A stretch of 64,000 nucleotides of DNA from Bacillota bacterium (GCA_035593725.1 DAOSZN010000010.1:2308-66307); one strand, 5' to 3'; numbered from the stretch's first letter, positions 346 to 17,450 are shown. Program-made: numbers and translations. Notes: generated from the letters alone by a model not told the origin.

Positions 346-801
346 GTGTGCAAAAACCGGAACCGACAGATGGCAGCCTATCGGATCCATGTGACATTGC
401 ATGATTCTCTTGACTACGAAATGAAGAATGGGGCTGCCGGTAGCGTGACTGCCGGTAGTGCGACAAGAGCCATAAAGTCTGTTGCGGCCGGAAAAAGAGT
501 CAATAGCCTGCATCGGACTTTATGTTATAATAAAAAGAGTTACTTATTCTCTGGTTCATGTCCGTGTGTATGCTCTGACAATTCGTGTTAGTAGCCGGAG
601 TTGACAAGTGTCGCAGGCAGCCGGATTCGTGAGGCTCAGTCAATATCAGGAGATGTCAAATTCACAACGCAACTTTTATCAGGCTGTTCAAGTGATTAAT
701 ATGCGACTGTCTAAATTCATAGTAATATGAGTGAGCCTTCTTTAGTATTGCAGTAATAGATCTTTCACCGGTAGTTTTGGAAAAAAGGAGAAGTGGTAAA
801 G

Positions 802-966
802 GTGTCAACCCTAAAACCTAAGAAACACATTACTACGATAAGCATGGGTTCAACAAGAGGTGGGCTTAACGAAGGCGGTTGCAAGGAGTGCCAGGCTTCA
901 TGCCAGTCAGCATGTAAGACCTCCTGCACTGTAGGAAATCAGGTTTGCCGAGAGAAGAGAAAGTGA
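802..966 (+). CDS. scfA: SCIFF (six cysteines in forty-five residues) ribosomal peptide precursor
   Basis: 54-codon ORF (GTG start, AAGGAG 11 nt upstream) below the ORF-track length cutoff. Core GGCKECQASCQSACKTSCTVGNQVC matches the SCIFF consensus GGCGECQTSCQSACKTSCTVGNQ. Lies immediately upstream of a radical SAM/SPASM gene. Confidence 0.85.
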   Translation: MSTLKPKKHITTISMGSTRGGLNEGGCKECQASCQSACKTSCTVGNQVCREKRK

Positions 967-973
967 CGACAGG

Positions 974-2386
974 ATGTTGGGAGAGGCTAATTGGCACATA
1001 TTCTCCTGTTTCGGAAAAACACTGTTATTCGATGTCAAAACAGGGGGTCTTCATGAATTAGATGAAGCCGGACGTAACGCAGCGCTTGCTTACAGAGACA
1101 AGACGTCTCTGCCGGAAGCTAAAAAACGCCTGTCTTCCGTTCAGTGCAAGCACGGCCCAGCCTTGGCGGAAGGCTTCGAGGAATCCGTGGCTGAGGCATA
1201 CAAAGAGCTGGAAAGCATGGTGGCTGAAGGTCTTCTTTCAGACCCTGATATCTGTGATGAAGAGTATGCTCCCGGTGAAGAGACGATCGTTAAAGCCTTA
1301 TGCCTTCACGTAGCTCATGACTGTAATCTAAGGTGCAAGTATTGCTTTGGTAAGACAGGGAACTTCGGGATGACGCGGGAGCTCATGCCCATTCGAGTGG
1401 CTAAAGCATCCATTGACTTCCTGCTGGATAGGTCGGGTCCCAGGCATAACCTTAATGTAGACTTCTTCGGCGGTGAACCGCTCCTCAACTTTGATGTAGT
1501 GAAAGCTACAGTTGAGTACTGCGACGGGAAGGCAAAGGCCTTGGGAAAACATGTGGATTTCACTGTTACTACGAATTGTGTTCTGCTTGACGATGAAGTC
1601 GCATCTTTCCTTAATGAGCGAAATATGCTTGTGGTGCTGAGCCTTGACGGCAGAAAGGAAGTCAATGACAGGATGCGCGTAATGCCGGGCGGAGGGGGTA
1701 GTTACGATCATGTGGCCCCTCGGCTGGCGAAGTTCATTCAAGCTAGGGATCCTGATTCGTATTACGTGAGAGCTACATACACACGGCACAACTTGGATTT
1801 CGCATCTGATGTCCTTCACCTTGCGGATCTGGGCGCCAAGAGCATCTCAGCTGAACCTGTGGTGGGCGGAAGCGATAGGGAATACGGCATCCAAGTCGAG
1901 GATATCAGCGCTATCGAGACGGAATATGAGCGCCTTACAAAACTTTTCGTGGATAGGCAGAAAAGAGGTCGGGGTTTTCTCTTCTACCATTTCAACATAG
2001 ACTTAGACGGCGGGCCATGTCTTGCCAGGAGGCTTTCAGGGTGCGGTGCAGGAATAGATTACCTTGCTGTCTCTCCTTCCGGCAGTATCTACCCATGCCA
2101 CCAGTTTGTCGGAAAGCCTGAATTCAGGATGGGCGACGTATTCAGAGGGTCTCTTGATCCAGGAATTATCAGTCAATTTCGTCATGCTCACATATACAAT
2201 AAAAGCGGATGCGGAACTTGCTGGGCCAGATTCATTTGCAGCGGAGGATGTCATGCTGCAGCTTACGGCTCATCCGCTGATATCCTGGTTCCTGATAAGG
2301 TAGCATGCGCTATTCAGAAGAAGCGCATTGAGTGCGCTTTGACCGCGCAAGCCATGTTAAAAGACACGGCACAGCCCGGAACATAA
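974..2386 (+). CDS. scfB: SCIFF radical SAM/SPASM maturase (thioether-forming)
   Basis: CNLRCKYC (Cx3Cx2C) radical SAM motif, C-terminal Cys-rich SPASM region (CGAG...CHQF...CGTCWARFICSGGCHAAAY), 8 nt downstream of SCIFF. Confidence 0.9.
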   Translation: MLGEANWHIFSCFGKTLLFDVKTGGLHELDEAGRNAALAYRDKTSLPEAKKRLSSVQCKHGPALAEGFEESVAEAYKELESMVAEGLLSDPDICDEEYAPGEETIVKALCLHVAHDCNLRCKYCFGKTGNFGMTRELMPIRVAKASIDFLLDRSGPRHNLNVDFFGGEPLLNFDVVKATVEYCDGKAKALGKHVDFTVTTNCVLLDDEVASFLNERNMLVVLSLDGRKEVNDRMRVMPGGGGSYDHVAPRLAKFIQARDPDSYYVRATYTRHNLDFASDVLHLADLGAKSISAEPVVGGSDREYGIQVEDISAIETEYERLTKLFVDRQKRGRGFLFYHFNIDLDGGPCLARRLSGCGAGIDYLAVSPSGSIYPCHQFVGKPEFRMGDVFRGSLDPGIISQFRHAHIYNKSGCGTCWARFICSGGCHAAAYGSSADILVPDKVACAIQKKRIECALTAQAMLKDTAQPGT

Positions 2387-9616: not shown

Positions 9617-9954
9617 GTCTTCCAGACTTGCTAAACTCGATTGTCCAAAGAAGGATTCCCAAAACCAATATGGAATAAACTTAGAGGAAACATTTGGAGG
9701 ATAAGTTCCGGCACTCTCGTATAGACCTGATCATGATGGGTTCAGGCGTTTCTACCAGGAGGCCGCAACCAACCTGGCTACGAGGGACTAGGAGAGGTGT
9801 TATCATATCTCGGTGTTCGCCTCTCATTGCGCCCAAGTCCGTGGTTTGCGACCTCCTTGTATTTTTCTGTCTTTGCATTTGTCATGTCTCACAGTCAGGT
9901 TAACAACGAAAATGGCAAAGTGTGAATTGAGTTTGGGGAGTCATACTGAAAGGA

Positions 9955-11370
9955 GTGGCAAGTATGTCCAAGATTCTCATTCGCGGCGGTCAAGTTGTTA
10001 CCATGAACGAGAAACAAGAAATCCTGGAACATGCTGATATCTTGATTGACGGACGCGTAATTGCCTCTGTAACGCCAATGAGTGAGGGGTCCGGAGGGTC
10101 AAAAGATATGTCGGGAGAAGGCTGTGAGAGCAGCACACGCCTTCATGATGTTGACATGATTATCAATGCGCGGGATAAAGTCGTCATGCCGGGCTTTATT
10201 CAGTCCCATGTCCATCTTTGCCAGACCCTTTTTCGCGGCCAGGCAGATGATCTTGAGCTTATGGATTGGTTGAAGCTTCGCATATGGCCACTGGAGGGTG
10301 CGCATGACGAGGACAGTATTTATTGGTCTGCAATGCTGGGAATCACTGAGCTGATTAAAGGTGGGACTACCTCCATCATTGACATGGAGACCGTCCATCA
10401 CACAGACAGAGCGTTTTCCGCTATTGACGATTCCGGAATTCGTGCCACATCAGGCAAGGTCATGATGGACTACGGGGATGATGTGCCTCCTACACTCATG
10501 GAGTCCACAAAGGATTCATTGAATGAGAGCGAGGCGCTGATGAACAAATGGCACATGCATGACGGAGGCAGGATTAGATACGCTTTTGCGCCGAGGTTCG
10601 TCGTGTCCTGTACAGATCAGCTCCTTGTCCGTGTGCGAGATATGGCGAAGGCCTCCGGTGTACTTGTCCATACCCATGCTTCTGAGAACAAGGGAGAGAT
10701 TGAAGTTGTTATGGCAGACAGGGGCATGAGGAACATCAAGTGCTTAAAGGAACTTGGGCTCTTAGGCCCCGGTGTTGTGCTGGCTCACTGCATTTGGCTG
10801 GATGATGAGGAGATGGAGCTTCTCAGGGATTCCGGGACAAAAGTAGTTCACTGTCCGTCCTCGAACCTTAAGCTTGCTTCAGGTGTGGCAAAAATCCCGG
10901 AAATGCTGGATATAGGTATCCATGTGTCGTTGGGCGCTGACGGAGCGCCGTGTAACAATAACTTGGATGTATTTCAGGAAATGAGACTTGCAGCTTTAAT
11001 CCACAAACCCCGTCTGGGACCTACTGCAATGCCTGCCGGGACAGTCCTGGAAATGGCGACGAAAGGCGGGGCCAAGGCTATGGGAATTGAGGATGAGGTC
11101 GGCAGCATAGAGCCGGGGAAACGCGCGGATATCATCATTCTCGACTTGAATCAGGCGCATGCTGCGCCCACTCAAAATGTAGACCTCATATCCCGCATAG
11201 TATATGAGGCTTCTTCAGCTGATGTTGAGACTACGATTGTCGATGGCCGTGTGCTGATGCATCAGAGGAAACTTACTGCCATCAGTGAGCAAGAAGTGGT
11301 GCGTGAGGCTAACAAAGCCTTAGAAAGAGCGCTCAGACGTTCCGGGTGTGCTCCGTCTGGCGAGAGATGA
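9955..11370 (+). CDS. Amidohydrolase, MtaD (5-methylthioadenosine/S-adenosylhomocysteine deaminase) family
   Basis: HVHLCQT (HxH), HTHASE, HCPSSNLKLASG, LGADGAPCNNNLDVFQEMRLAALI closely parallel the TM0936/MtaD family; start GTG 9955 or ATG 9964. Confidence 0.7.
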   Translation: MASMSKILIRGGQVVTMNEKQEILEHADILIDGRVIASVTPMSEGSGGSKDMSGEGCESSTRLHDVDMIINARDKVVMPGFIQSHVHLCQTLFRGQADDLELMDWLKLRIWPLEGAHDEDSIYWSAMLGITELIKGGTTSIIDMETVHHTDRAFSAIDDSGIRATSGKVMMDYGDDVPPTLMESTKDSLNESEALMNKWHMHDGGRIRYAFAPRFVVSCTDQLLVRVRDMAKASGVLVHTHASENKGEIEVVMADRGMRNIKCLKELGLLGPGVVLAHCIWLDDEEMELLRDSGTKVVHCPSSNLKLASGVAKIPEMLDIGIHVSLGADGAPCNNNLDVFQEMRLAALIHKPRLGPTAMPAGTVLEMATKGGAKAMGIEDEVGSIEPGKRADIIILDLNQAHAAPTQNVDLISRIVYEASSADVETTIVDGRVLMHQRKLTAISEQEVVREANKALERALRRSGCAPSGER

Positions 11371-11422: not shown

Positions 11423-12175
11423 GTGTTGACTTGTGAGGAAGAGGCACGCTATGCGAGGCAGATTGTGATTCATCAGATCGGCAAGGAAGGGCAGGAGAAA
11501 TTGAAGTCGTCAAAGGTTCTTGTTGTCGGTGCAGGCGGGTTAGGATCTCCTTCCGCCATGTACTTGGCATGCGCAGGTGTGGGCACAATCGGCCTTGTAG
11601 ATGATGACACAGTCAGTATTTCCAATTTGCAGCGACAGATCCTCCATGATTCAGACAGCCTTGGGATGAAGAAGGTGGAATCAGCCAAGAGGACACTTGA
11701 ACGTCTTAACCCCCATGTGTGTGTAGAGACCTATGATACGAGACTTTCGAGAGAATGCGTAAAAGACATAATCGCCGGGTACGACCTGGTGGTGGATGCA
11801 GTGGATAACCTGAAAACAAGGTGCCTGGTGAACGATACTTGTCAAGAACTGAAAAAACCCTTGATAGAAGCCGGGGTAATGCACTTTGACGGGATGATTC
11901 TTACCATATTGCCTGGGAAAGGCCCATGCTTTAGGTGTGTCTTCCCGTCTCCTCCGCCGGAGGATGCAGCCGGGAAGGCCGGCGGGACCGGCATATTCGG
12001 AGCAATTCCCGGCATAGTCGGTTGTATGGAGGCTGTCGAGGCAGTGAAGGTTCTTCTTGACATAGGAAACCCCCTTGTCGGGAGACTGCTCTTATTCAGC
12101 GGTTTGGACATGACCTGGAATGAAATCAAGGTATCTCAGAATCCTGATTGCCCGGTTTGCGGTAAGGTGTCTTAG
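11423..12175 (+). CDS. ThiF/MoeB/HesA-family adenylyltransferase (E1-like)
   Basis: ARYARQI, VLVVGAGGLGSP nucleotide-binding motif, CxxC...CPVCG zinc motif. Confidence 0.8.
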   Translation: MLTCEEEARYARQIVIHQIGKEGQEKLKSSKVLVVGAGGLGSPSAMYLACAGVGTIGLVDDDTVSISNLQRQILHDSDSLGMKKVESAKRTLERLNPHVCVETYDTRLSRECVKDIIAGYDLVVDAVDNLKTRCLVNDTCQELKKPLIEAGVMHFDGMILTILPGKGPCFRCVFPSPPPEDAAGKAGGTGIFGAIPGIVGCMEAVEAVKVLLDIGNPLVGRLLLFSGLDMTWNEIKVSQNPDCPVCGKVS

Positions 12176-12554
12176 CGAATATGCGGAAGGCGTTTCTTGG
12201 CCTTTCTTTATCTGTCCTATTCTCCACCACTTGAGCGCTGATCCGCAGTGGAGGATAGGACGTCTCTGCTTTCAGTGGAGATCATTCCATCTTCATCCTT
12301 CATCATCAGCATGATCGTATGTGGGTGCTATTTGATGATGCATACAGGAAGACTTCTTAAGATTCACGTCGTGAGCAAGAGCACATTGACATTGCCATAA
12401 GGGCGTGATAAAGTAGACATATAATCCAGATTATGGAATTCATTCATAATAATGTATAATATGTGTTTGCAGGTATGTGTTATCTAAGCATGAAAGGCAA
12501 AATTGAGAGGCCGGTGGGCGTCTTTGGCAACTGCTTTGTGGAGGGGGAAGCGAT

Positions 12555-13037
12555 ATGGATAAGCTGAAAGTCATTCTGGTCCATGATGGTTCAAGCGGAA
12601 GCGGGGCAAGTCCGGATCCGGATGCCCTCCCTGAAGGCATAGAGGTTGTGGGGAGTCTTAGGATAGAAGGATTTGGCGGAAGAGGAGGTCCTCGCGACGC
12701 GAGGCAACTAATCTCAGGTAAGGCCGGTCCGAATATCGGCGTAGAAGAAAGTCTTGCCGGGTCAGCCGAAAAAAGTCGAAAGCATGAGTCGTCCCGGCAA
12801 GCATTTCTACCGAATGCCCATGAAGAAATCGAGGATCGTCCGGTAAGCCTTACCAGGACAGAATTGGAAGTGCTGAGACTATTGGTCAAAGGCCAGCAGA
12901 ATAAGGAAATCGCTGATGAAATGTTTATCAGTGTCAATACCGTCAAGAGCCATGTGTCCAGCATTCTCAGGAAGCTGCGCGTAAAGAATCGGGCCCAAGC
13001 TGTGAGATATGTGTACAAGTGCGGTTTGTGGCAATGA
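12555..13037 (+). CDS. LuxR-family HTH transcriptional regulator with degenerate N-terminal domain
   Basis: C-terminal LTRTELEVLRLLVKGQQNKEIADEMFISVNTVKSHVSSILRKL (LuxR/FixJ HTH). N-terminus is Gly/Ser-rich and lacks clear receiver residues. TGnTATAAT extended -10 about 90 nt upstream. Confidence 0.7.
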   Translation: MDKLKVILVHDGSSGSGASPDPDALPEGIEVVGSLRIEGFGGRGGPRDARQLISGKAGPNIGVEESLAGSAEKSRKHESSRQAFLPNAHEEIEDRPVSLTRTELEVLRLLVKGQQNKEIADEMFISVNTVKSHVSSILRKLRVKNRAQAVRYVYKCGLWQ

Positions 13038-13217
13038 CGTGTGCTGCCCGACAGACTTCATAAATCGTTCCCTTGAGCCTAAAAAAGTCGTCCCTATGGG
13101 GAATGGCGGATCCTCTCAATACAAGCTAGACTGGAATTGCCAGAGACAACCTGAGCCGGCCCAGGCGCTATAGTACAAAGTTCGCCCGCTTGAAAGGCGG
13201 GGAAGGGGGTGCGCCAC

Positions 13218-13319
13218 ATGTACGGTAAGCTCGGCGGAAAGAAGATGAGATTTGACCTTGCAATCGATGGGTTTTGCTTTACCTTTAGGCTGTGGGGTCA
13301 TCGTATAACTATCGGCTAA
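13218..13319 (+). CDS. Candidate RiPP precursor peptide (33 aa: MYGKLGGKKMRFDLAIDGFCFTFRLWGHRITIG)
   Basis: Strong SD GGAAGGGGGTG 7 nt before ATG; immediately upstream of the rSAM/SPASM gene; followed by an 8-bp hairpin at 13339-13369. No homology claim. Confidence 0.25.
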   Translation: MYGKLGGKKMRFDLAIDGFCFTFRLWGHRITIG

Positions 13320-13435
13320 GGCCGCAGGGTGGGGTAGGCGGCAGACTCAAATGGGTTGCGGGTCTGCCGTCTGCTTACCTAAATCGCCGGGGAGATTTGC
13401 CCAGTGGAAACATAGTCGCGGTACGCGATGCGGAA

Positions 13436-14791
13436 ATGGGGGGAGTGGCGTTGGATCGGCACGTGGTCACCATTGCAAAAGGGATAGAAGTTGTGGAACA
13501 TGAAGGCCAACGGGTTCTCATAAACCCTGCTAACCGTGAGTGGATAAAACTTGCGGACTACGCATATGAGCTTGTTTTGAATCCGGAAGGGAAACCCGTG
13601 CGACAGTTGGTTCTTGATGAGGCTTTGCAAACCGGGGCAGAACCCGAGACTATTAAGAGTCTCTTTCACTATTTGAAGGAATACGGGTTTCTGGCTGAAA
13701 TCACTGATATGGTGACCCTTGCCCGTGCCTATCTCAATGTAACTGCGAGATGTAATCTAGCATGTCCTATGTGTTACTTTGCAAGTAATGACTCACCCGG
13801 GTATGACGAATTGTCTTGTGAAGCATTATTCCTGACCATTGATGCCTTATCCGAGGCCGGGGTCAGCAATCTTGCGATAAGCGGAGGCGAGCCGTTGCTC
13901 TTGCCGGATTTCCGCGACATATTGGATTATTCTACGAAGAAGTTCCCCATAATAACTATTCTCACAAATGGAACACTGATTACCCAGGAAGACGCAAGAC
14001 ATATATCAAAGGCCAATGCAAGGGTACAAGTAAGCATTGAATCCGCCAATCCACAGGTTCATGACGGTATTCGCGGGCCGGGCAGCTTCAATAGGGCAAT
14101 TGAAGGCGTTAAGATGCTGCTCAGGGCAGGAGTACATAACGTCGAGATCGTTCAAACTCTTACAAGAGACAGTATTCGCGAATCCAGAGGAGTTATTGAA
14201 TTAGCCGGAGCGCTGGGTGTAACCTATCATTTCAGTCTGTTCCTGCCCGTAGGCAGGGGCATATGCCACATGGGCGACATGGAGATCACCACAGATGAAT
14301 TGTTGAGACACTTCTTCAGGGTGTGTGACGCATCTCTTGAACGAAGACGGGAAGGGGAATTTCAGGCGCCTGACTTAAGTGATCTGACGTCTCCTTTTGA
14401 ACTCATTGTAAAGGAGCGATGCGGCGCAGGTAGTTCCATTATCAGCATAGAGCCTGACGGTAAGGTGTATCCTTGCCCTGTGCTGCATACCGAGGGTATG
14501 GCCTTAGGAAAACTGCCTGATGAGCCGGTATGGGAAATTGTGAGACGAGGCAGGCGCAAGATGCCTGATGTCACCCGACTTCCTGGGTGTTCAGACTGCG
14601 ATGTAGCTTTCTTCTGCGGAGGAGGGTGTCGTGCAAGGGCGTTCGCTCATACCGGCGATGTGTTTTCGAAAGATCCGTATTGCCGGTTCTATCAGCGTGT
14701 CTTACCGGCTTTTCTTTGGGAGTGGCGGGAAGACAGAGCTTTTTCCGACAACATGGAAGCGATCTTGTCCTCTGTTGGGAAAGGAGAATAA
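13436..14791 (+). CDS. Radical SAM/SPASM-domain peptide-modifying enzyme with N-terminal RRE(PqqD-like) extension
   Basis: CNLACPMCY (Cx3Cx2C), C-terminal SPASM Cys clusters (CGAG..., CPV..., GCSDCDVAFFCGGGCRARAF), ~100 aa N-terminal extension ending ...YGFLAEI resembling a PqqD-like RRE. Longest ORF starts at 13292 but that N-terminus looks non-coding (R/G-rich). Confidence 0.8.
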   Translation: MGGVALDRHVVTIAKGIEVVEHEGQRVLINPANREWIKLADYAYELVLNPEGKPVRQLVLDEALQTGAEPETIKSLFHYLKEYGFLAEITDMVTLARAYLNVTARCNLACPMCYFASNDSPGYDELSCEALFLTIDALSEAGVSNLAISGGEPLLLPDFRDILDYSTKKFPIITILTNGTLITQEDARHISKANARVQVSIESANPQVHDGIRGPGSFNRAIEGVKMLLRAGVHNVEIVQTLTRDSIRESRGVIELAGALGVTYHFSLFLPVGRGICHMGDMEITTDELLRHFFRVCDASLERRREGEFQAPDLSDLTSPFELIVKERCGAGSSIISIEPDGKVYPCPVLHTEGMALGKLPDEPVWEIVRRGRRKMPDVTRLPGCSDCDVAFFCGGGCRARAFAHTGDVFSKDPYCRFYQRVLPAFLWEWREDRAFSDNMEAILSSVGKGE

Positions 14792-14797
14792 ACAGCG

Positions 14798-15547
14798 GTG
14801 ACTGCGCTGACTTATGTCCTTCTCGGGATCTCACTTGTGGTAAGGCTTTTTGTGTCTTCGGAAGCCTGCAAGCGAAATGACGCGACAGATGCTACAACTT
14901 CAGTGGTTTTTCTCTCATTGATCTCCGCCGGGATTATACACCGGGGAGATCCCCTGGACATATACGGCCTTAGCTTGTCATCGTTATTCAGGTGTTCTTG
15001 GACTGCCATATTTCTTCTATGGGCAACCGCATTTACCATAGGCAGAGTGGCAAATGCTTTGATTCTTCATCCCGGCACAGGTTTTGAAGAGATGTTGGCA
15101 AGAGGGCATGCAAGCCCGGGTGGGGTTTATCTTTCTTTGAAAGATTACCCGAACCTCTGCGGGCTGATGTTAGGGGTACCTATGATATGGTCCCAGACCT
15201 TCATGGAGGAGTTCATATTCCGAGGGTTATTAGTCTCACTGGGCAAATGGTTCTATGGCTTGTTGGGGATATCAGAGCCTTTTGCCGGTTTTCTCAGTAT
15301 TATAGGTTCTGCGATTATGTTTGGGCTCGTTCATTTTGTCCCTGCATTTTACCGTTTAAGGGGAAAGAGCATCCTGATCCCGCTATATGCGTTTATCATG
15401 CCGACTACACTTGGGATGATTTTTTCCTTGCTGAACCGGGTGTCATATTCCCTTTGGTCCGGGTGGATTGTGCACTTCGGCCTGAACTATGCAGGGTTTA
15501 TGTGGGACAGGATATCAGGAAAATGGGAGGCGTATGGCCCGGCGTAA
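14798..15547 (+). CDS. CPBP-family (CAAX protease / Abi) intramembrane metalloprotease
   Basis: Motif 1 EEFIFRG (EExxxR), motif 2 FGLVHF (FxxxH), motif 3 HFGLN (HxxxN); multi-TM. Confidence 0.8.
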   Translation: MTALTYVLLGISLVVRLFVSSEACKRNDATDATTSVVFLSLISAGIIHRGDPLDIYGLSLSSLFRCSWTAIFLLWATAFTIGRVANALILHPGTGFEEMLARGHASPGGVYLSLKDYPNLCGLMLGVPMIWSQTFMEEFIFRGLLVSLGKWFYGLLGISEPFAGFLSIIGSAIMFGLVHFVPAFYRLRGKSILIPLYAFIMPTTLGMIFSLLNRVSYSLWSGWIVHFGLNYAGFMWDRISGKWEAYGPA

Positions 15548-16395
15548 GGTATTTGGGGGGATGGGTTACGTCTTATGTAGAGTTTTCCGATGTAACAAAG
15601 GTATATAGGGATTTCCGGGGTAGGCCTGTGGCCACTGGAATAGAGGGGCTTTCCTTTTCTATCCGGGAGGGGGAGACATTGGCGCTCCTCGGGCCTAACG
15701 GGTCAGGCAAGACTACAGTCATCAAGCTTCTTGCAGGCCTTCTAATTCCCACTTCAGGAAGGATCACAGTCGGTGGGGTCGATGTGATCCAAAATCCCAG
15801 GAAAGCATTGGAAAATGTGGGTGTAATGCTTGGTGACGCGCGTTCAATTTACTGGAGGCTCACTGCGCAAGATAATCTGGAGTACTTTGGTGCGCTAAGG
15901 GGAGTTTGCGGCAAGAAGTTACGGGAACGCATAGGGGCTTTGGCAAGGCTGTTGGATTTCGAAAGCGTTTTGACCAGGCGTGTGGGAGAGCTGTCCCGCG
16001 GTATGCGCCAGAGACTGCTTCTTGCCATAGCGCTGCTGCCTAATCCGCGCCTATTGATACTGGATGAACCTACATTCGGGCTTGATGTGCTATCCAGACA
16101 TGAGATCCGACGACTCCTTCGTGAAATCGTATCAACAAAACACTGCGCCATTGTTATCGCTACGCATCAGATGGAGGAAGCTGAGGAACTTGCCGGCCGC
16201 GTTTGTATCCTCAGGCGAGGCAAGGCAGTGGCTCTGGATACCGTGGAAGGTTTGACAAGGAAGATAAACGGGGCGAGAGACGGTCAGGTTGCATCATCGC
16301 TTTTGCTTGAGGAGGTATTCCTCGAGGTGACGAGGGAAGAAAGCAAAGGAAGGGCGGAAGTATTTCATGACAGGGCCGGCTATCCTTTGGGCTGA
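15523..16395 (+). CDS. ABC transporter ATP-binding protein
   Basis: Walker A GPNGSGKTT, ABC signature LSRGMRQR, Walker B LLILDEPT; overlaps CPBP gene end. Confidence 0.85.
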   Translation: MGGVWPGVRYLGGWVTSYVEFSDVTKVYRDFRGRPVATGIEGLSFSIREGETLALLGPNGSGKTTVIKLLAGLLIPTSGRITVGGVDVIQNPRKALENVGVMLGDARSIYWRLTAQDNLEYFGALRGVCGKKLRERIGALARLLDFESVLTRRVGELSRGMRQRLLLAIALLPNPRLLILDEPTFGLDVLSRHEIRRLLREIVSTKHCAIVIATHQMEEAEELAGRVCILRRGKAVALDTVEGLTRKINGARDGQVASSLLLEEVFLEVTREESKGRAEVFHDRAGYPLG

Positions 16396-17149
16396 ACTGA
16401 AAAGAGGTATGAAAAACCACTTGGCATATCCGGTTCAGGCTGCGTGTGAAATCATTACCGTGATATTCATTGCAATAGTCATACCGTCATTTACGGAAGG
16501 GTCTTTTCCCAGGGGCATCTCAGGCGTTGCGGTGGAAAGGCCGGAAAAGATCACTGCGTTTATCATGGTTTTTATTGCGCTCATCGGTCTTCAGATTGTC
16601 CATCGGGTGGTGAGGGAAGAGTCAGATCTTGGAACCCTTGAGCAATTGTGCCTTTCGCCCATTGGGTTGCCTTCTCTCATAATGTTCCGTTGTGCTGCTG
16701 ACACCATCAGGATGGCGCCGATTGTCCTAATAGTCGCAGGGATGGTTTCACCGCGTCAACAACTGGGCCAAATCCTTGTTATGGTGCCTGTGATCATCTT
16801 CTTCATGAACATAGGTATGCTTGGAATGGGTTTTTTGCTGGGTTCTCTTACGCTTGTTGCCAAACGCACCGGATTCATCCCGAACCTGGCAAGCCTTGCC
16901 TTATTACCGTTTGCCTTGTCTCCTTCCGGTGAAATGCCGTACATACTGAAAATTGCAGGCTCGATCGTGCCTTTTGCCCATGGGGTCAGATTAATGGAGC
17001 CTACGCTTAAAGGCTCTCCTGTTGCCTTATGGATACCGGATCTTCTCAAGCTGTGCCTTTTGAGTTGTTCATGGCTTATCCTTGGTATCCGGTGTTTCGT
17101 CATGGCTGAAAGATTTGCCAGACAGAGGGGGCTGCTTGGGAAACACTGA
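16367..17149 (+). CDS. ABC-2-type transporter permease
   Basis: 6-TM hydrophobic protein overlapping the ATPase gene by 29 nt. Confidence 0.6.
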   Translation: MTGPAILWAELKRGMKNHLAYPVQAACEIITVIFIAIVIPSFTEGSFPRGISGVAVERPEKITAFIMVFIALIGLQIVHRVVREESDLGTLEQLCLSPIGLPSLIMFRCAADTIRMAPIVLIVAGMVSPRQQLGQILVMVPVIIFFMNIGMLGMGFLLGSLTLVAKRTGFIPNLASLALLPFALSPSGEMPYILKIAGSIVPFAHGVRLMEPTLKGSPVALWIPDLLKLCLLSCSWLILGIRCFVMAERFARQRGLLGKH

Positions 17150-17175
17150 AAAAGATTCGGCAAAGGGGGATTCTC

Positions 17176-17379
17176 TTGAGTTCTGATTCTTTGGAATTTG
17201 GGCTGATGCAAGCATGCCTTAGTTTGAGCCGAATATGCGCAAAGGAAGCAATATGGGTTAATTCGCCCGGTTCCAAATTGACCCTTATTCAACACGCAAT
17301 CTGCTTCTTGGATATCGCCTGCCAATTCAAGTCTTCTACTAATAGCAGACTGTTTGCTGTTGGGCGCATTGCGAAGTAG
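17176..17379 (+). CDS. Small Cys-containing ORF (67 aa), alternative precursor/immunity candidate
   Basis: TTG start with AAGGGGGA SD 5 nt upstream, immediately after the ABC permease; 4 Cys; no motif. Confidence 0.2.
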   Translation: MSSDSLEFGLMQACLSLSRICAKEAIWVNSPGSKLTLIQHAICFLDIACQFKSSTNSRLFAVGRIAK

Positions 17380-17450
17380 CAGGAATCGACTCCCCGTTAG
17401 AGAAGAAACAGAGTAAGATTTTTCTGCGCCTGAACAACGGGGGGAACAGA

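What the first reader, a model, noticed from the sequence alone, without database searches (positions are those of the whole stretch)
12440..17400. Uncharacterised RiPP-like operon: LuxR regulator, SD-led microORF, rSAM/SPASM enzyme with RRE, CPBP protease, ABC exporter
A tightly coupled gene string has the canonical architecture of a ribosomal-peptide natural product or bacteriocin locus. It runs small ORF, radical SAM/SPASM enzyme, CPBP intramembrane protease, ABC ATPase, ABC-2 permease, with overlapping or <10-nt junctions. Its parts do not match the SCIFF system present elsewhere in the same window. The rSAM has an ~100-aa N-terminal PqqD-like extension (RiPP recognition element) and the standard Cx3Cx2C motif plus SPASM cysteines. 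CPBP proteases are the usual processing/immunity partners of class II bacteriocins and some RiPPs. A LuxR-type regulator with a non-canonical N-terminus sits directly upstream and may provide signal-dependent control. Which peptide is modified, and what crosslink forms (Cys thioether versus streptide-like Lys-Trp carbon-carbon link), cannot be deduced from the sequence.
Basis: partly seen in the sequence, partly recalled or inferred. Interest (0 to 1): 0.85.

Follow-up and report, generated by a model that had tools for sequence, protein, structure and literature searches.

The report
Uncharacterised radical-SAM modified-peptide operon
This is a real gene cluster for a small ribosomal peptide that a radical-SAM enzyme modifies. 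It represents a previously unannotated peptide family, inherited vertically in a lineage of uncultured anaerobic-digester Bacillota, and its chemistry and role are still unknown.

Summary
On the + strand, 12386-17149 encodes six genes:
- a LuxR/GerE regulator with a vestigial receiver domain
- a 33-aa precursor (13218-13319, MYGKLGGKKMRFDLAIDGFCFTFRLWGHRITIG)
- a radical-SAM/SPASM enzyme with an N-terminal RRE
- a catalytically intact CPBP (Rce1-like) intramembrane protease
- an ABC ATPase
- an ABC-2 permease

The small ORF is a real gene. It appears in 47 of the 57 related loci fetched by the enzyme scan and the peptide-pattern scan. The other ten are distant rSAM relatives or contig fragments that lack the region. 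In those 47 loci it is always 33 aa, and sequence variation falls mainly on third codon positions. Cys20, Phe23, Trp26, Thr31 and the C-terminal Gly33 never change.

LuxR-peptide-rSAM-CPBP is the conserved core. The ABC pair is present in only one subclade. The locus sits between the same housekeeping genes across deep divergence, so it is inherited vertically.

Neither the peptide nor the enzyme reaches any curated Pfam or NCBIfam family, and no paper was found that describes them. The closest known system is the Bacillus skf operon (peptide, rSAM SkfB, Rce1-like SkfC, ABC SkfEF).

The most likely chemistry is one intramolecular thioether from Cys20, but this is inference. A Lys-Trp (streptide-type) link, cyclopropanation and a mycofactocin-type reaction are disfavoured.

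It is a new family of a well-known kind and of moderate interest.

The parts
12386..12414 (+). Sigma-70-like promoter (TTGACA-17-TAAAGT with an upstream TG), probably driving the LuxR gene. A terminator-like hairpin at 12185-12206 closes the upstream MoeB/ThiF gene.
   Evidence: This is a consensus match only; promoter-like sites are not enriched over shuffled sequence.
12555..13037 (+). LuxR/GerE-type transcription regulator, 160 aa. The HTH spans residues 98-153. The N-terminal ~90 residues are a low-complexity remnant of a receiver domain (KVILVHDG...EVVG).
   Evidence: PF00196 E 5e-23. It lies upstream of the peptide gene wherever the contig reaches that far. The deep-branching homologue in L014 keeps a partial PF00072 receiver domain (44 bits); the window protein and its clade do not.
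13085..13106 (+). Conserved operator-like element AAGTCGTCCCTATGGGGAATGG, overlapping a poor -35 region. In the distant clade it reads ATCACCC-GTTT-GGGTAAT, an imperfect dyad. It is the candidate binding site for the LuxR protein.
   Evidence: It occurs once in the window, with none expected by chance. The motif TC[AG]YYC-N4-[AG]GG.AAT sits at a near-fixed distance before the peptide start in 32 of 33 non-redundant loci: -128 to -135 in the window clade and -118/-119 in most of the distant clade, with extremes of -96 and -164. Its function is inferred.
13127..13132 (+). Conserved -10 box TAGACT (TATGCT, TATAAT or TACGAT in other clades) for the precursor/biosynthesis transcript.
   Evidence: Alignment of upstream regions. 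The -35 position reads TGGCGG, which suggests a promoter that depends on an activator. This is inferred.
13150..13165 (+). Near-palindrome CCTGAGCCGGCCCAGG in the 5' leader. It is almost invariant in the window clade.
   Evidence: It is conserved in sequence, but no compensatory changes support an RNA helix. L031 carries its exact reverse complement, and the L005 lineage carries a different palindrome (GCGCATGCGC) at the same place. Its role is unknown.
13218..13319 (+). Precursor peptide gene, 33 aa plus stop: MYGKLGGKKMRFDLAIDGFCFTFRLWGHRITIG. The leader is probably about residues 1-18 and the core about 19-33. The SD GGAAGGGGG lies at 13201-13209.
   Evidence: It is conserved in the 47 loci that carry it and is always 33 aa there. 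G7, C20, F23, W26, G27, T31 and G33 are invariant among the loci. With the divergent members added, C20, F23, W26, T31 and G33 remain invariant. Variation is mainly at third codon positions, and invariant residues are spelled with several synonymous codons. It has no Pfam or NCBIfam match.
13333..13376 (+). Conserved RNA hairpin just after the precursor stop codon. It has a stem of about 16 bp and a conserved loop (CAA.NGGGTTGCGG), with no T-run. It is probably a transcript-processing, stabilising or attenuating element that sets the peptide-to-enzyme ratio.
   Evidence: RNAalifold predicts 19 pairs, 11 of them with compensatory double changes. No Rfam family matches. Its function is inferred.
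13436..14791 (+). Radical-SAM/SPASM peptide maturase with an N-terminal RRE. The alternative start is TTG 13451. Numbered on the 499-aa ORF, the motifs are C154-x3-C158-x2-C161 and the SPASM motif C433-x2-C436-x5-C442-x3-C446, plus C377, C395 and C464.
   Evidence: Pfam and NCBIfam hits, invariant columns, AF2 model at pLDDT 78.6, Foldseek and PDB profile hits to CteB, SkfB, TigE and SuiB, and the RRE profile match.
14798..15547 (+). CPBP / Rce1-like glutamic intramembrane protease, 249 aa. It is the candidate leader peptidase and may also process or translocate the peptide.
   Evidence: PF02517 E 8.5e-10. The motifs EExxFR, FGxxH and HxxLN are invariant in 18 homologues. It follows the rSAM gene in all loci long enough to show it.
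15523..16395 (+). ABC transporter ATPase of the DrrA type. The alternative start is TTG 15553.
   Evidence: PF00005 5e-30; TIGR01188 3.6e-62, below its cut-off. It is present only in the window-like subclade.
16367..17149 (+). ABC-2 type permease, 260 aa, overlapping the ATPase gene by 29 nt.
   Evidence: PF01061 27.0 bits against a cut-off of 26.9. It always occurs together with the ATPase.

Best explanation
This is a biosynthetic operon for a ribosomally made, radical-SAM-modified peptide (RiPP) of a family not described before.

**Shown**
- A 33-aa precursor under purifying selection is encoded immediately upstream of a three-cluster radical-SAM/SPASM enzyme that carries a peptide-binding RRE.
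- A catalytically intact CPBP membrane protease follows the enzyme.
- A LuxR-type regulator is always upstream.
- A DrrA-type ABC exporter is present in one subclade only.

**Inferred**
- The LuxR protein binds the conserved element that overlaps the weak -35 region and activates the precursor promoter.
- A conserved hairpin after the precursor gene keeps the precursor transcript in excess over the enzyme transcript.
- The RRE binds the basic, beta-strand-prone N-terminal half of the peptide (about residues 1-18).
- The enzyme abstracts a hydrogen atom in the aromatic C-terminal core (FCFTFRLWGHRITIG) and forms one intramolecular crosslink.
- The CPBP removes the leader at the membrane.
- Where the ABC-2 transporter is present, it exports the product or protects the producer.

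**Chemistry.** My estimates are:
- about 0.5 for a thioether from the single invariant Cys20 to Phe23 or Thr31, that is, a sactionine or ranthionine
- about 0.25 for a carbon-carbon or carbon-heteroatom link at Trp26 or Phe23
- the remainder for other chemistry

**Role.** The locus is vertically inherited, sits at a fixed chromosomal position, and lacks any exporter or immunity gene in half of the family. I therefore lean slightly towards a signalling or physiological peptide (a lineage-wide peptide like SCIFF) rather than a classical bacteriocin.
For: - **Domains and motifs:**
- **The precursor is real and conserved:**
- **Synteny:** LuxR-peptide-rSAM-CPBP holds in all loci long enough to show it, including loci found from the peptide pattern alone.
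- **RRE:** secondary-structure topology, profile-profile match at 96.5% and E 8.6e-10, an NCBIfam StsB alignment that starts at residue 55, and full-length structural matches to the RRE-bearing maturases CteB, TigE and SuiB.
- **SPASM:** the CX2CX5CX3C motif is present in 22 of 23 family enzymes.
- **Thioether lean:**
  - The two best solved relatives, CteB and SkfB, both form thioethers.
  - At the six catalytic-site-proximity positions of Precord et al. (PMC10288494), mapped through the, 67 alignments, this family reads Y-S-L-S-P-L. SkfB reads Y-T-F-S-Q-L, CteB F-F-T-S-H-Q, PqqE S-S-I-S-H-A and anSME F-Q-Q-S-D-F.
  - The only heteroatom-bearing invariant residues in the core are Cys20 and Thr31.
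- **Regulatory elements:**
- **Vertical inheritance:** the same flanking genes recur, and rSAM identity falls in step with that of the neighbouring UPF0182 gene: 71/82, 61/76, 58/70, 48/59 and 37/52%.
Against: - No chemistry is demonstrated.
- The enzyme is below the curated cut-off of every NCBIfam maturase model. Its top partial hits are a mix of AhbD, MftC, StsB and WgkB at similar scores, so sequence similarity does not choose a reaction.
- The Pfam PqqD model does not detect the RRE.
- One conserved Cys is few for a sactipeptide or ranthipeptide.
- Three invariant aromatic or Gly positions (F23, W26, G27 in most members) would also fit cyclophane-type chemistry.
- The catalytic-proximity comparison uses only five reference enzymes and my own mapping.
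- No CPBP protease has been shown biochemically to remove a RiPP leader; a review of leader peptidases does not mention the family.
- LuxR binding, promoter activity and the role of the hairpin are inferred from conservation alone.
- All members come from metagenome-assembled genomes, so expression is unverified.
Confidence: 0.8

Rival explanations
1. The peptide is modified at its aromatic residues rather than through sulfur. Possibilities are a cyclophane or other C-C, C-O or C-N crosslink at Trp26 and/or Phe23 (triceptide, darobactin or tryglysin-like), or a new Cys-aromatic link. Cys20 might then serve another role.
For: - F23 and W26 are invariant, and W-G is nearly so.
- The spacing C20-x2-F23-x2-W26 is regular.
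- The NCBIfam models WgkB (4.5e-35) and DynA (3.6e-26) give partial hits of the same order as the thioether-forming models.
- SuiB is among the structural matches.
Against: - None of the 20 variants has a Lys in residues 12-33, so a streptide or WGK-type Lys-Trp link is not possible.
- The residue two positions after Trp varies (H, Y, V or F).
- The best solved relatives form thioethers.
- The invariant Cys would be left unexplained.
Confidence: 0.25
2. The locus makes a peptide-derived redox cofactor or another intracellular small molecule, as in mycofactocin or PQQ, rather than a secreted modified peptide.
For: - The family is vertically inherited, single-copy and deeply conserved, and half of it has no transporter.
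- MftC is the second-best NCBIfam partial hit (5e-38).
- The window-clade motif IDGFC resembles, from memory, the IDGMCGVY C-terminus of MftA.
Against: - The IDG motif is not conserved in the other clades (VNSFC, INGIC, VNVIC).
- The peptide ends in T-I/V-G, not the Val-Tyr on which MftC acts.
- No MftB, D, E or F-like gene, dehydrogenase or PqqB/C-like gene is in any locus.
- The MftC model score is 131 bits against a cut-off of 265.
- A membrane protease, and in one clade an exporter, point to an extracytoplasmic product.
Confidence: 0.07
3. The enzyme is a cyclopropyl synthase of the TvgB/TigE type. It would convert Ile32 or Val32 in the invariant C-terminal T-I/V-G motif into (methyl)cyclopropylglycine.
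For: - The C-terminus is TIG, or TVG in the L013 type. This echoes the TIGSVS and TVGG substrate motifs (PMC10878394).
- TigE (8VPO) is a full-length structural and profile match.
Against: - The GYW motif supplies the Tyr ligand of the Aux I cluster and is reported as strictly conserved and specific to cyclopropyl synthases (PMC10878394). It is absent from all 23 family enzymes.
- The TigE match (60 bits) is much weaker than those to CteB (120 bits) and SkfB (107 bits).
- The substrate motif is single here, not repeated.
- One divergent member ends in TLG.
Confidence: 0.04
4. It is a classical narrow-spectrum bacteriocin locus of the sporulation-killing-factor type. The ABC pair gives the producer immunity and the CPBP acts as protease and/or immunity protein.
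For: - The gene order is the same as skfA-B-C-E-F (PMC8172795; bioRxiv 10.1101/2025.03.21.644447).
- SkfC is Rce1-like (PMC9415966).
- The core is hydrophobic, aromatic and cationic.
- The ATPase also gives a sub-threshold partial hit (4.8e-41, 141 bits against a cut-off of 310) to a lantibiotic-protection ABC ATPase model.
Against: - Bacteriocin loci are usually patchy and mobile. This one sits at a fixed chromosomal site and diverges in step with housekeeping neighbours.
- The ABC pair is missing from roughly half of the family, where housekeeping genes (Obg, NadD) follow the CPBP directly.
- The core is under very strong conservation rather than diversifying.
Confidence: 0.35

Closest known systems
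Bacillus subtilis sporulation killing factor operon skfABCEFGH (sactipeptide SKF)
   Same: - The gene order matches: precursor, then an RRE-bearing radical-SAM maturase, then an Rce1-like/CPBP membrane protease, then an ABC ATPase and a permease (PMC8172795; bioRxiv 10.1101/2025.03.21.644447; PMC9415966 for the SkfC family).
- SkfB is the second-best solved relative by both sequence profile (5e-30) and fold (1e-16).
- SkfB is the closest of the five reference enzymes at the six catalytic-site-proximity positions.
- SKF has a single thioether, and the precursor's own C-terminal residue ends up in the mature product.
   Different: - The precursor is unrelated: 33 aa with one Cys, against 55 aa with three Cys.
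- SkfB has a twitch domain, whereas this enzyme has a full SPASM motif.
- The NCBIfam SkfB model scores 68 bits against a cut-off of 300.
- There are no skfG or skfH equivalents.
- The regulator is an adjacent LuxR-type protein.
- The transporter is optional.
- The locus is vertically inherited in uncultured Bacillota.
SCIFF / CteA-CteB ranthipeptide system (also present in this window at 793-2386)
   Same: - CteB is the best solved relative (9e-34; Foldseek 1e-17).
- Both have an RRE, a radical-SAM domain and a SPASM domain.
- Both are short precursors conserved across a whole lineage, with unknown function.
- CteB makes a Cys-to-Thr thioether, and this peptide has an invariant Cys and an invariant Thr.
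   Different: - The enzyme is only 23% identical to the window's own ScfB.
- The ScfB model is not among its top hits.
- The peptide has one Cys rather than six and no similarity to TIGR03973.
- SCIFF loci lack the LuxR, CPBP and ABC partners.
StsB / MftC clade of SPASM maturases (StsA sactipeptide; mycofactocin)
   Same: MftC (131 bits) and StsB (129 bits, with an alignment that includes the N-terminal RRE, residues 55-477) are among the top NCBIfam partial hits. Precord et al. (PMC10288494) showed that enzymes in this region of sequence space can be sactisynthases despite overall similarity to MftC.
   Different: - Both scores are far below the cut-offs (265 and 625).
- The precursor has neither the C-terminal Val-Tyr of MftA nor any resemblance to StsA.
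- There are no accessory mycofactocin genes.

Membership tests
RRE-dependent radical-SAM/SPASM RiPP gene cluster (broad kind) | A short precursor gene lies next to the maturase and is conserved together with it. | tested here: met
   The 33-aa ORF is present in the 47 loci that carry the system and shows a coding signature.
RRE-dependent radical-SAM/SPASM RiPP gene cluster (broad kind) | A CX3CX2C radical-SAM motif plus a SPASM CX2CX5CX3C motif with further Cys ligands. | tested here: met
   C154, C158, C161, C377, C395, C433, C436, C442, C446 and C464 are invariant. The SPASM motif is present in 22 of 23 family enzymes. PF04055 and PF13186 score above their cut-offs.
RRE-dependent radical-SAM/SPASM RiPP gene cluster (broad kind) | A PqqD-like RiPP recognition element (winged helix: three strands plus three helices). 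| tested here: met
   The model shows the topology. hhalign against the N-domains of PF05402-annotated homologues gives 96.5% and E 8.6e-10. The Pfam PF05402 model itself is not hit by any of the 17 members.
Sactipeptide / ranthipeptide | A Cys sulfur linked to the alpha (sacti) or beta/gamma (ranthi) carbon of another residue. | not testable with these tools
   A donor Cys is present and invariant (C20), as are plausible acceptors (F23, T31). The bond itself needs MS/NMR.
Sactipeptide / ranthipeptide | The maturase belongs to a curated sacti- or ranthisynthase family (AlbA, SkfB, StsB, PapB, ScfB, RumMC and others). | tested here: not met
   All are below cut-off: StsB 129/625, AlbA 86/850, SkfB 68/300 and PapB 80/340 bits.
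SCIFF system | A six-Cys-in-45 precursor (TIGR03973) and the ScfB maturase (TIGR03974). | tested here: not met
   The peptide has no match. The enzyme is 23% identical to the window's ScfB. The true SCIFF pair lies at 793-2386.
Mycofactocin system | An MftA precursor ending in Gly-Val-Tyr, MftC above cut-off, and mftB/D/E/F neighbours. | tested here: not met
   The C-terminus is T-I/V-G. MftC scores 131 bits against a cut-off of 265. No such neighbours are present.
Radical-SAM cyclopropyl synthases (TvgB/TigE) | A strictly conserved GYW motif supplying the Tyr ligand of the Aux I cluster (PMC10878394). | tested here: not met
   GYW is absent from all 23 family enzymes.
Streptide / WGK-type Lys-Trp crosslinked RiPPs | A Lys in the core to crosslink with Trp. 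| tested here: not met
   None of the 20 peptide variants has a Lys in residues 12-33. WgkB scores 121 bits against a cut-off of 650.
CPBP / Rce1-like glutamic intramembrane proteases | The motifs EExxxR, FxxxH and HxxxN/D in transmembrane helices. | tested here: met
   EExxFR, FGxxH and HxxLN are invariant in 18 homologues. PF02517 scores 39.2 bits against a cut-off of 22.4.
NarL/FixJ-type response regulators | An N-terminal receiver domain with the phospho-acceptor Asp, plus a C-terminal GerE HTH. | tested here: not met
   The window protein has only the HTH. Among the five homologues scanned, a partial PF00072 domain survives only in L014. The window keeps the remnant KVILVHDG...EVVG.

The most novel reading that the evidence does not exclude
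The family makes a new class of modified peptide that acts as a lineage-wide cell-cell or envelope signal rather than as an antibiotic.
- **Chemistry.** Its crosslink would not have been described before. One example is a bond from the single Cys to the invariant Phe or Trp side chain. Another is a thioether combined with CPBP-mediated head-to-tail cyclisation onto the invariant C-terminal Gly, as proposed for SkfC.
- **Regulation.** Its synthesis would be auto-regulated through the orphan LuxR-type regulator and the conserved operator and leader elements.
Probability: 0.2. Interest if true: 0.75.

Novelty: new member of a known kind. Interest (0 to 1): 0.5.

Why it matters
**What it adds.** It adds a cleanly defined, experimentally tractable family to the radical-SAM RiPPs: a four-gene core, a 33-aa substrate and five invariant core residues.

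**How it differs from most orphan clusters.**
- It is a core-genome feature of a whole lineage of uncultured Bacillota from anaerobic digesters. It lies next to SCIFF in the same genome, so it bears on the open question of what such vertically conserved modified peptides do.
- It offers a second natural pairing, after skf, of a radical-SAM maturase with a CPBP intramembrane protease. The role of that protease family in RiPP maturation is still not established biochemically.
- It comes with conserved candidate regulatory DNA and RNA elements that can be tested directly.

**Caveat.** If the chemistry turns out to be an ordinary sactionine, the value is mainly as a catalogue entry.

Tried and rejected
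**Other small ORFs in the LuxR-rSAM gap**
- The 54-aa ORF at 13009-13173 is rejected. It has an in-frame stop in the L005 lineage, and its conserved stretch shows no third-position variation.
- The ORF at 13351-13503 (MGCGS...) is rejected. Its start codon is not conserved (ATG, GTG, ACG or GGG), and the sequence is the loop of the conserved hairpin.

**Riboswitch or known RNA**
- Rfam finds nothing in 12900-13600 at E up to 5.
- The 5' leader shows sequence conservation but no covariation.

**Rejected models**
- Mycofactocin-like, cyclopropyl synthase and Lys-Trp crosslink models are rejected on tested defining features (see Membership tests).
- A double-glycine leader is rejected. G6 is Ala in one clade, cleavage after residue 7 would leave a 7-aa leader, and no C39 peptidase is present.
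- The MoeB/ThiF gene (11423-12175) and the 5'-deoxyadenosine deaminase (9955-11370) are not part of the system. ThiF is absent from the distant clade and is separated from the locus by a terminator-like hairpin.

**Searches that led nowhere**
- The search for homologous proteins refuses 33-aa queries. A 41-aa extension found only three clusters, one labelled 'hypothetical protein' and the other two unnamed.
- The search for related loci could not use the peptide alignment, so I replaced it with a hand-built degenerate DNA pattern.
- Full-text searches for peptide motif strings and for rSAM plus CPBP RiPP clusters found nothing relevant.
- No supplement is held for PMC10288494.
- A review of RiPP leader peptidases does not mention CPBP enzymes.

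**Error to note**
- One row (L040) in alignments A3 and A4 was taken in the wrong orientation and should be ignored.

Full report
**1. What is in the sequence**

ORF listing and domain scans show a co-directional gene string on the + strand:
- **LuxR/GerE regulator, 12555-13037.** PF00196 5e-23; only residues 98-153 match any family.
- **Small ORF, 13218-13319.** It is preceded by the SD GGAAGGGGG.
- **Radical-SAM/SPASM enzyme, ORF 13292-14791.** PF04055 1.6e-26 and PF13186 2.3e-06.
- **CPBP/Rce1-like protease, 14798-15547.** PF02517 8.5e-10.
- **ABC ATPase, to 16395.** PF00005 5e-30.
- **ABC-2 permease, 16367-17149.**

The junctions are a 6-nt gap, then a 5-nt gap or a 25-nt overlap depending on the ATPase start, then a 29-nt overlap. 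The rSAM start is not 13292. Homologues begin at the equivalent of ATG 13436 or TTG 13451, and residues 1-52 of the long ORF are disordered in the structure model.

The peptide at 793-966 (TIGR03973, 71 bits against a cut-off of 50) and the maturase at 974-2386 (TIGR03974, 540 against 425) are a bona fide SCIFF pair. That maturase is only 23% identical to the enzyme studied here.

**2. The small ORF is a real, conserved gene**

A protein search with the rSAM enzyme found about 20 close relatives, all from metagenome-assembled Bacillota. A scan of one genome per species returned 29 loci.

In the 19 of those loci that cover the region upstream of the enzyme, there is a 33-aa ORF of the same family. 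The other ten are distant rSAM relatives or contig fragments without that region.

I then built a degenerate DNA pattern from the peptide's invariant residues alone (C-x2-F-x2-W-G-x2-[IV]-T-[IV]-G-stop) and scanned the metagenome collection. It matched 29 contigs, and 28 of them encode the same peptide. In every one of these, LuxR lies upstream and rSAM plus CPBP downstream wherever the contig is long enough.

The peptide is always 33 aa in these loci. G7, C20, F23, W26, G27, T31 and the C-terminal G33 are invariant.

Within the window's clade, summed column entropy by codon position is 8.9, 5.5 and 32.8. Synonymous codon differences outnumber non-synonymous ones 1302 to 584, and the invariant residues are spelled with two to four different codons. 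This is the signature of a translated gene under purifying selection.

A profile search of 1.84 billion representative proteins found a few more divergent members, for example MFGKRTGKMARIDVAIDGYCINFPIWIFEITLG. These reduce the strictly invariant core residues to C20, F23, W26, T31 and G33. The two looked up (P0126 and P0128) again sit directly upstream of a radical-SAM gene, followed in P0128's loci by an Rce1-like gene.

**3. Core and accessory genes, and inheritance**

LuxR-peptide-rSAM-CPBP is the constant core. The ABC ATPase and permease occur only in the window-like subclade plus L013 and L014. They are absent from L007-L010 and from the whole distant clade, where Obg, NadD and other housekeeping genes follow the CPBP directly.

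The locus lies between the same neighbours across the family. An amidohydrolase (with or without MoeB/ThiF) is upstream, and UPF0182 is downstream in the window clade. Identity of the rSAM falls in step with that of UPF0182: 71/82, 61/76, 58/70, 48/59 and 37/52%.

This is vertical inheritance of an old locus, not a mobile bacteriocin island. All sources are bioreactor, fermentation or digester metagenomes.

**4. The enzyme**

The alignment shows an invariant CX3CX2C motif (C154/158/161), a GGEP motif, and the SPASM cysteines C377, C395, C433-x2-C436-x5-C442-x3-C446 and C464. The SPASM motif is present in 22 of 23 family members.

The AlphaFold model (17 sequences, mean pLDDT 78.6) places an N-terminal domain of three to four strands followed by three helices in front of the barrel. 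This is the topology of an RRE as described for TigE, CteB, SkfB and SuiB (PMC10878394).

The Pfam PqqD model does not detect it in any of 17 members. However, a profile of the N-domain matches a profile of the N-domains of PF05402-annotated rSAM homologues at 96.5% probability and E 8.6e-10. The NCBIfam StsB alignment also starts at residue 55.

The best solved relatives are:

| Structure | Profile E-value | Foldseek E-value |
|---|---|---|
| CteB | 9e-34 | 1e-17 |
| SkfB | 5e-30 | 1e-16 |
| TigE | 9.5e-16 | 5e-15 |
| SuiB | 2.5e-08 | 2e-14 |

anSME (3.6e-20) and PqqE (5.6e-20) match only the core.

No curated NCBIfam model is reached. The top partial hits are AhbD (140 bits against a cut-off of 500), MftC (131/265), StsB (129/625) and WgkB (121/650).

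**5. Which reaction?**

This cannot be settled from sequence, but several options can be weighed.

- **Lys-Trp link.** A streptide or WGK-type link is excluded as the conserved reaction, because none of the 20 variants has a Lys in residues 12-33.
- **Cyclopropanation.** The C-terminal T-I/V-G recalls the TIGSVS and TVGG substrates of cyclopropyl synthases. Those enzymes carry a strictly conserved and specific GYW motif (PMC10878394), which is absent from all 23 family enzymes.
- **Mycofactocin-like.** The resemblance to mycofactocin (IDGFC against, from memory, IDGMCGVY) is confined to one clade. The C-terminal Tyr and the mft accessory genes are missing.
- **Catalytic-site-proximity positions.** I mapped the six positions of Precord et al. 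(PMC10288494; CteB F112, F152, T186, S210, H363, Q364) through the HMMER alignments. The results are:

| Enzyme | Six positions |
|---|---|
| This family | Y-S-L-S-P-L |
| SkfB | Y-T-F-S-Q-L |
| CteB | F-F-T-S-H-Q |
| PqqE | S-S-I-S-H-A |
| anSME | F-Q-Q-S-D-F |

The family is closest to SkfB, a sactisynthase that makes a single Cys-to-Met alpha-thioether (PMC8172795). Taken with the invariant Cys20 and the invariant Phe23 and Thr31, I put about 0.5 on one thioether from Cys20. From memory, Phe and Thr are the acceptor types in subtilosin, and Thr is the acceptor for CteB. I put about 0.25 on a crosslink at the aromatic residues and the rest on other chemistry. The proximity analysis is weak evidence, since it rests on five references and my own mapping.

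**6. The protease and transporter**

The CPBP keeps all three catalytic motifs (EExxFR, FGxxH, HxxLN) in 18 homologues spanning the family, so it is an active enzyme rather than a decayed immunity protein. The ATPase is DrrA-like (TIGR01188 3.6e-62). It also gives a partial hit to the lantibiotic-protection ATPase model.

The gene order peptide-rSAM-CPBP-ABC-permease is that of skfA-B-C-E-F in Bacillus subtilis. There, SkfB and SkfC are the maturation machinery and SkfEF provide export and immunity (PMC8172795; bioRxiv 10.1101/2025.03.21.644447). SkfC is assigned to the Rce1-like family (PMC9415966).

SKF is cyclised head to tail using the precursor's own C-terminus. The invariant C-terminal Gly, and the invariant 13-residue distance from Cys20 to the end, would fit a requirement for an exact C-terminus. 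This is speculation.

**7. Regulation**

The regulator has only a GerE HTH. The homologue in the deep-branching locus L014 retains a partial receiver domain (PF00072, 44 bits). The window protein keeps only a remnant (KVILVHDG...EVVG) followed by low-complexity sequence. It is therefore a decayed NarL-type response regulator with no kinase in the locus.

Between it and the peptide gene lie three features:
- **A conserved 22-bp element, 13085-13106.** It is unique in the window. It lies at a nearly fixed distance from the peptide start in 32 of 33 non-redundant loci, and in the distant clade it is a 7-4-7 imperfect dyad.
- **A conserved -10 box, TAGACT.** It is paired with a poor -35 region.
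- **A near-palindrome in the leader, 13150-13165.** It is almost invariant and shows no RNA covariation.

Right after the peptide stop codon is a hairpin (13333-13376) with a 16-bp stem. Eleven pairs show compensatory double changes, and the loop is conserved. There is no T-run and no Rfam match.

I read these as an activator-dependent promoter plus a stem-loop that uncouples precursor and enzyme transcript levels, as is common in RiPP operons. This is inference from conservation alone.

**8. Comparison and novelty**

All testable features of the broad kind (RRE-dependent rSAM/SPASM RiPP cluster) are met. Membership of every specific curated family tested (SCIFF, SkfB, AlbA, StsB, PapB, MftC, WgkB, cyclopropyl synthases) fails on scores or on defining motifs.

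The peptide has no Pfam or NCBIfam model. It is called as a gene in only three clusters of a database of 5.8 billion clusters, one labelled 'hypothetical protein' and the other two unnamed. No paper in the searchable library contains its motifs or describes an rSAM plus CPBP RiPP of this type.

I therefore file it as a new family-level member of a well-known kind. It is not a new kind of system.

**9. Verdict**

The finding is real and correctly interpreted. Its distinguishing points are:
- the deep vertical conservation next to housekeeping genes
- the minimal four-gene core without an exporter in half of the family
- the skf-like pairing with an active CPBP protease
- the single-Cys, Phe/Trp/Thr-invariant core
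- the conserved regulatory elements

These make it a good experimental target. However, orphan rSAM-RiPP families are numerous, and nothing here contradicts current understanding, so interest is moderate (0.5). The most novel reading still open is new crosslink chemistry and a signalling role. I give it about 0.2.

Noticed in passing
window 793-966 and 974-2386 (+): A bona fide SCIFF ranthipeptide precursor (TIGR03973, 71 bits) and its ScfB maturase (TIGR03974, 540 bits). This genome therefore carries two lineage-conserved rSAM-modified peptides.
   Followed up: partly
window 9697-9800 and 9955-11370 (+): A purine riboswitch (RF00167, 48.7 bits) lies upstream of a 5'-deoxyadenosine deaminase (NF005557, 677 bits against a cut-off of 522), which salvages the by-product of radical-SAM enzymes. 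An amidohydrolase also lies upstream of the RiPP locus in the distant clade, at about 25% identity. Whether this link is functional or only syntenic is unknown.
   Followed up: partly
window 13150-13165; L005 4673-4692; L031 (reoriented) about 583-598: The leader near-palindrome CCTGAGCCGGCCCAGG is invariant in most of the clade. L031 carries its exact reverse complement. The L005/L033/L034 lineage has a different perfect palindrome (GCGCATGCGC) at the same position. This looks like a protein-binding site that co-evolves with its binder, but the binder is unknown.
   Followed up: partly
window 13347-13361 (loop of the hairpin at 13333-13376): The loop sequence CAA.NGGGTTGC is conserved across sub-clades whose stems have changed completely by compensatory substitutions. 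No pairing partner or known motif was found.
   Followed up: no
L014 423-1052; L013 2043-2858: Deep-branching members have a longer regulator. Pfam detects a partial receiver domain in L014, while L013 carries a long Cys/Pro/Gly/Ala-rich insert between its N-terminal region and the HTH. This documents stepwise decay of a response regulator into the short LuxR-type protein of the window.
   Followed up: partly
window 11423-12175 (+): A MoeB/ThiF-type E1-like adenylyltransferase (NF004281, 295 bits against a cut-off of 266) lies between the deaminase and the LuxR gene. It is closed by a terminator-like hairpin at 12185-12206. It is present only in the window-like subclade and is probably unrelated to the RiPP.
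   Followed up: partly
L004 5776-5877: In this locus the precursor's ATG is replaced by ATC. An in-frame GTG three codons upstream may serve as the start instead, and the same GTG exists in the window at 13209. In this enzyme (P0011) the nearly invariant Cys325 is Ser.
   Followed up: no
P0025-P0035, P0057, P0076: A separate, well-populated group of ~410-aa rSAM/SPASM proteins includes Eggerthellaceae members (Adlercreutzia, Parvibacter). They score just below the distant clade of this family. Their substrates were not examined.
   Followed up: no
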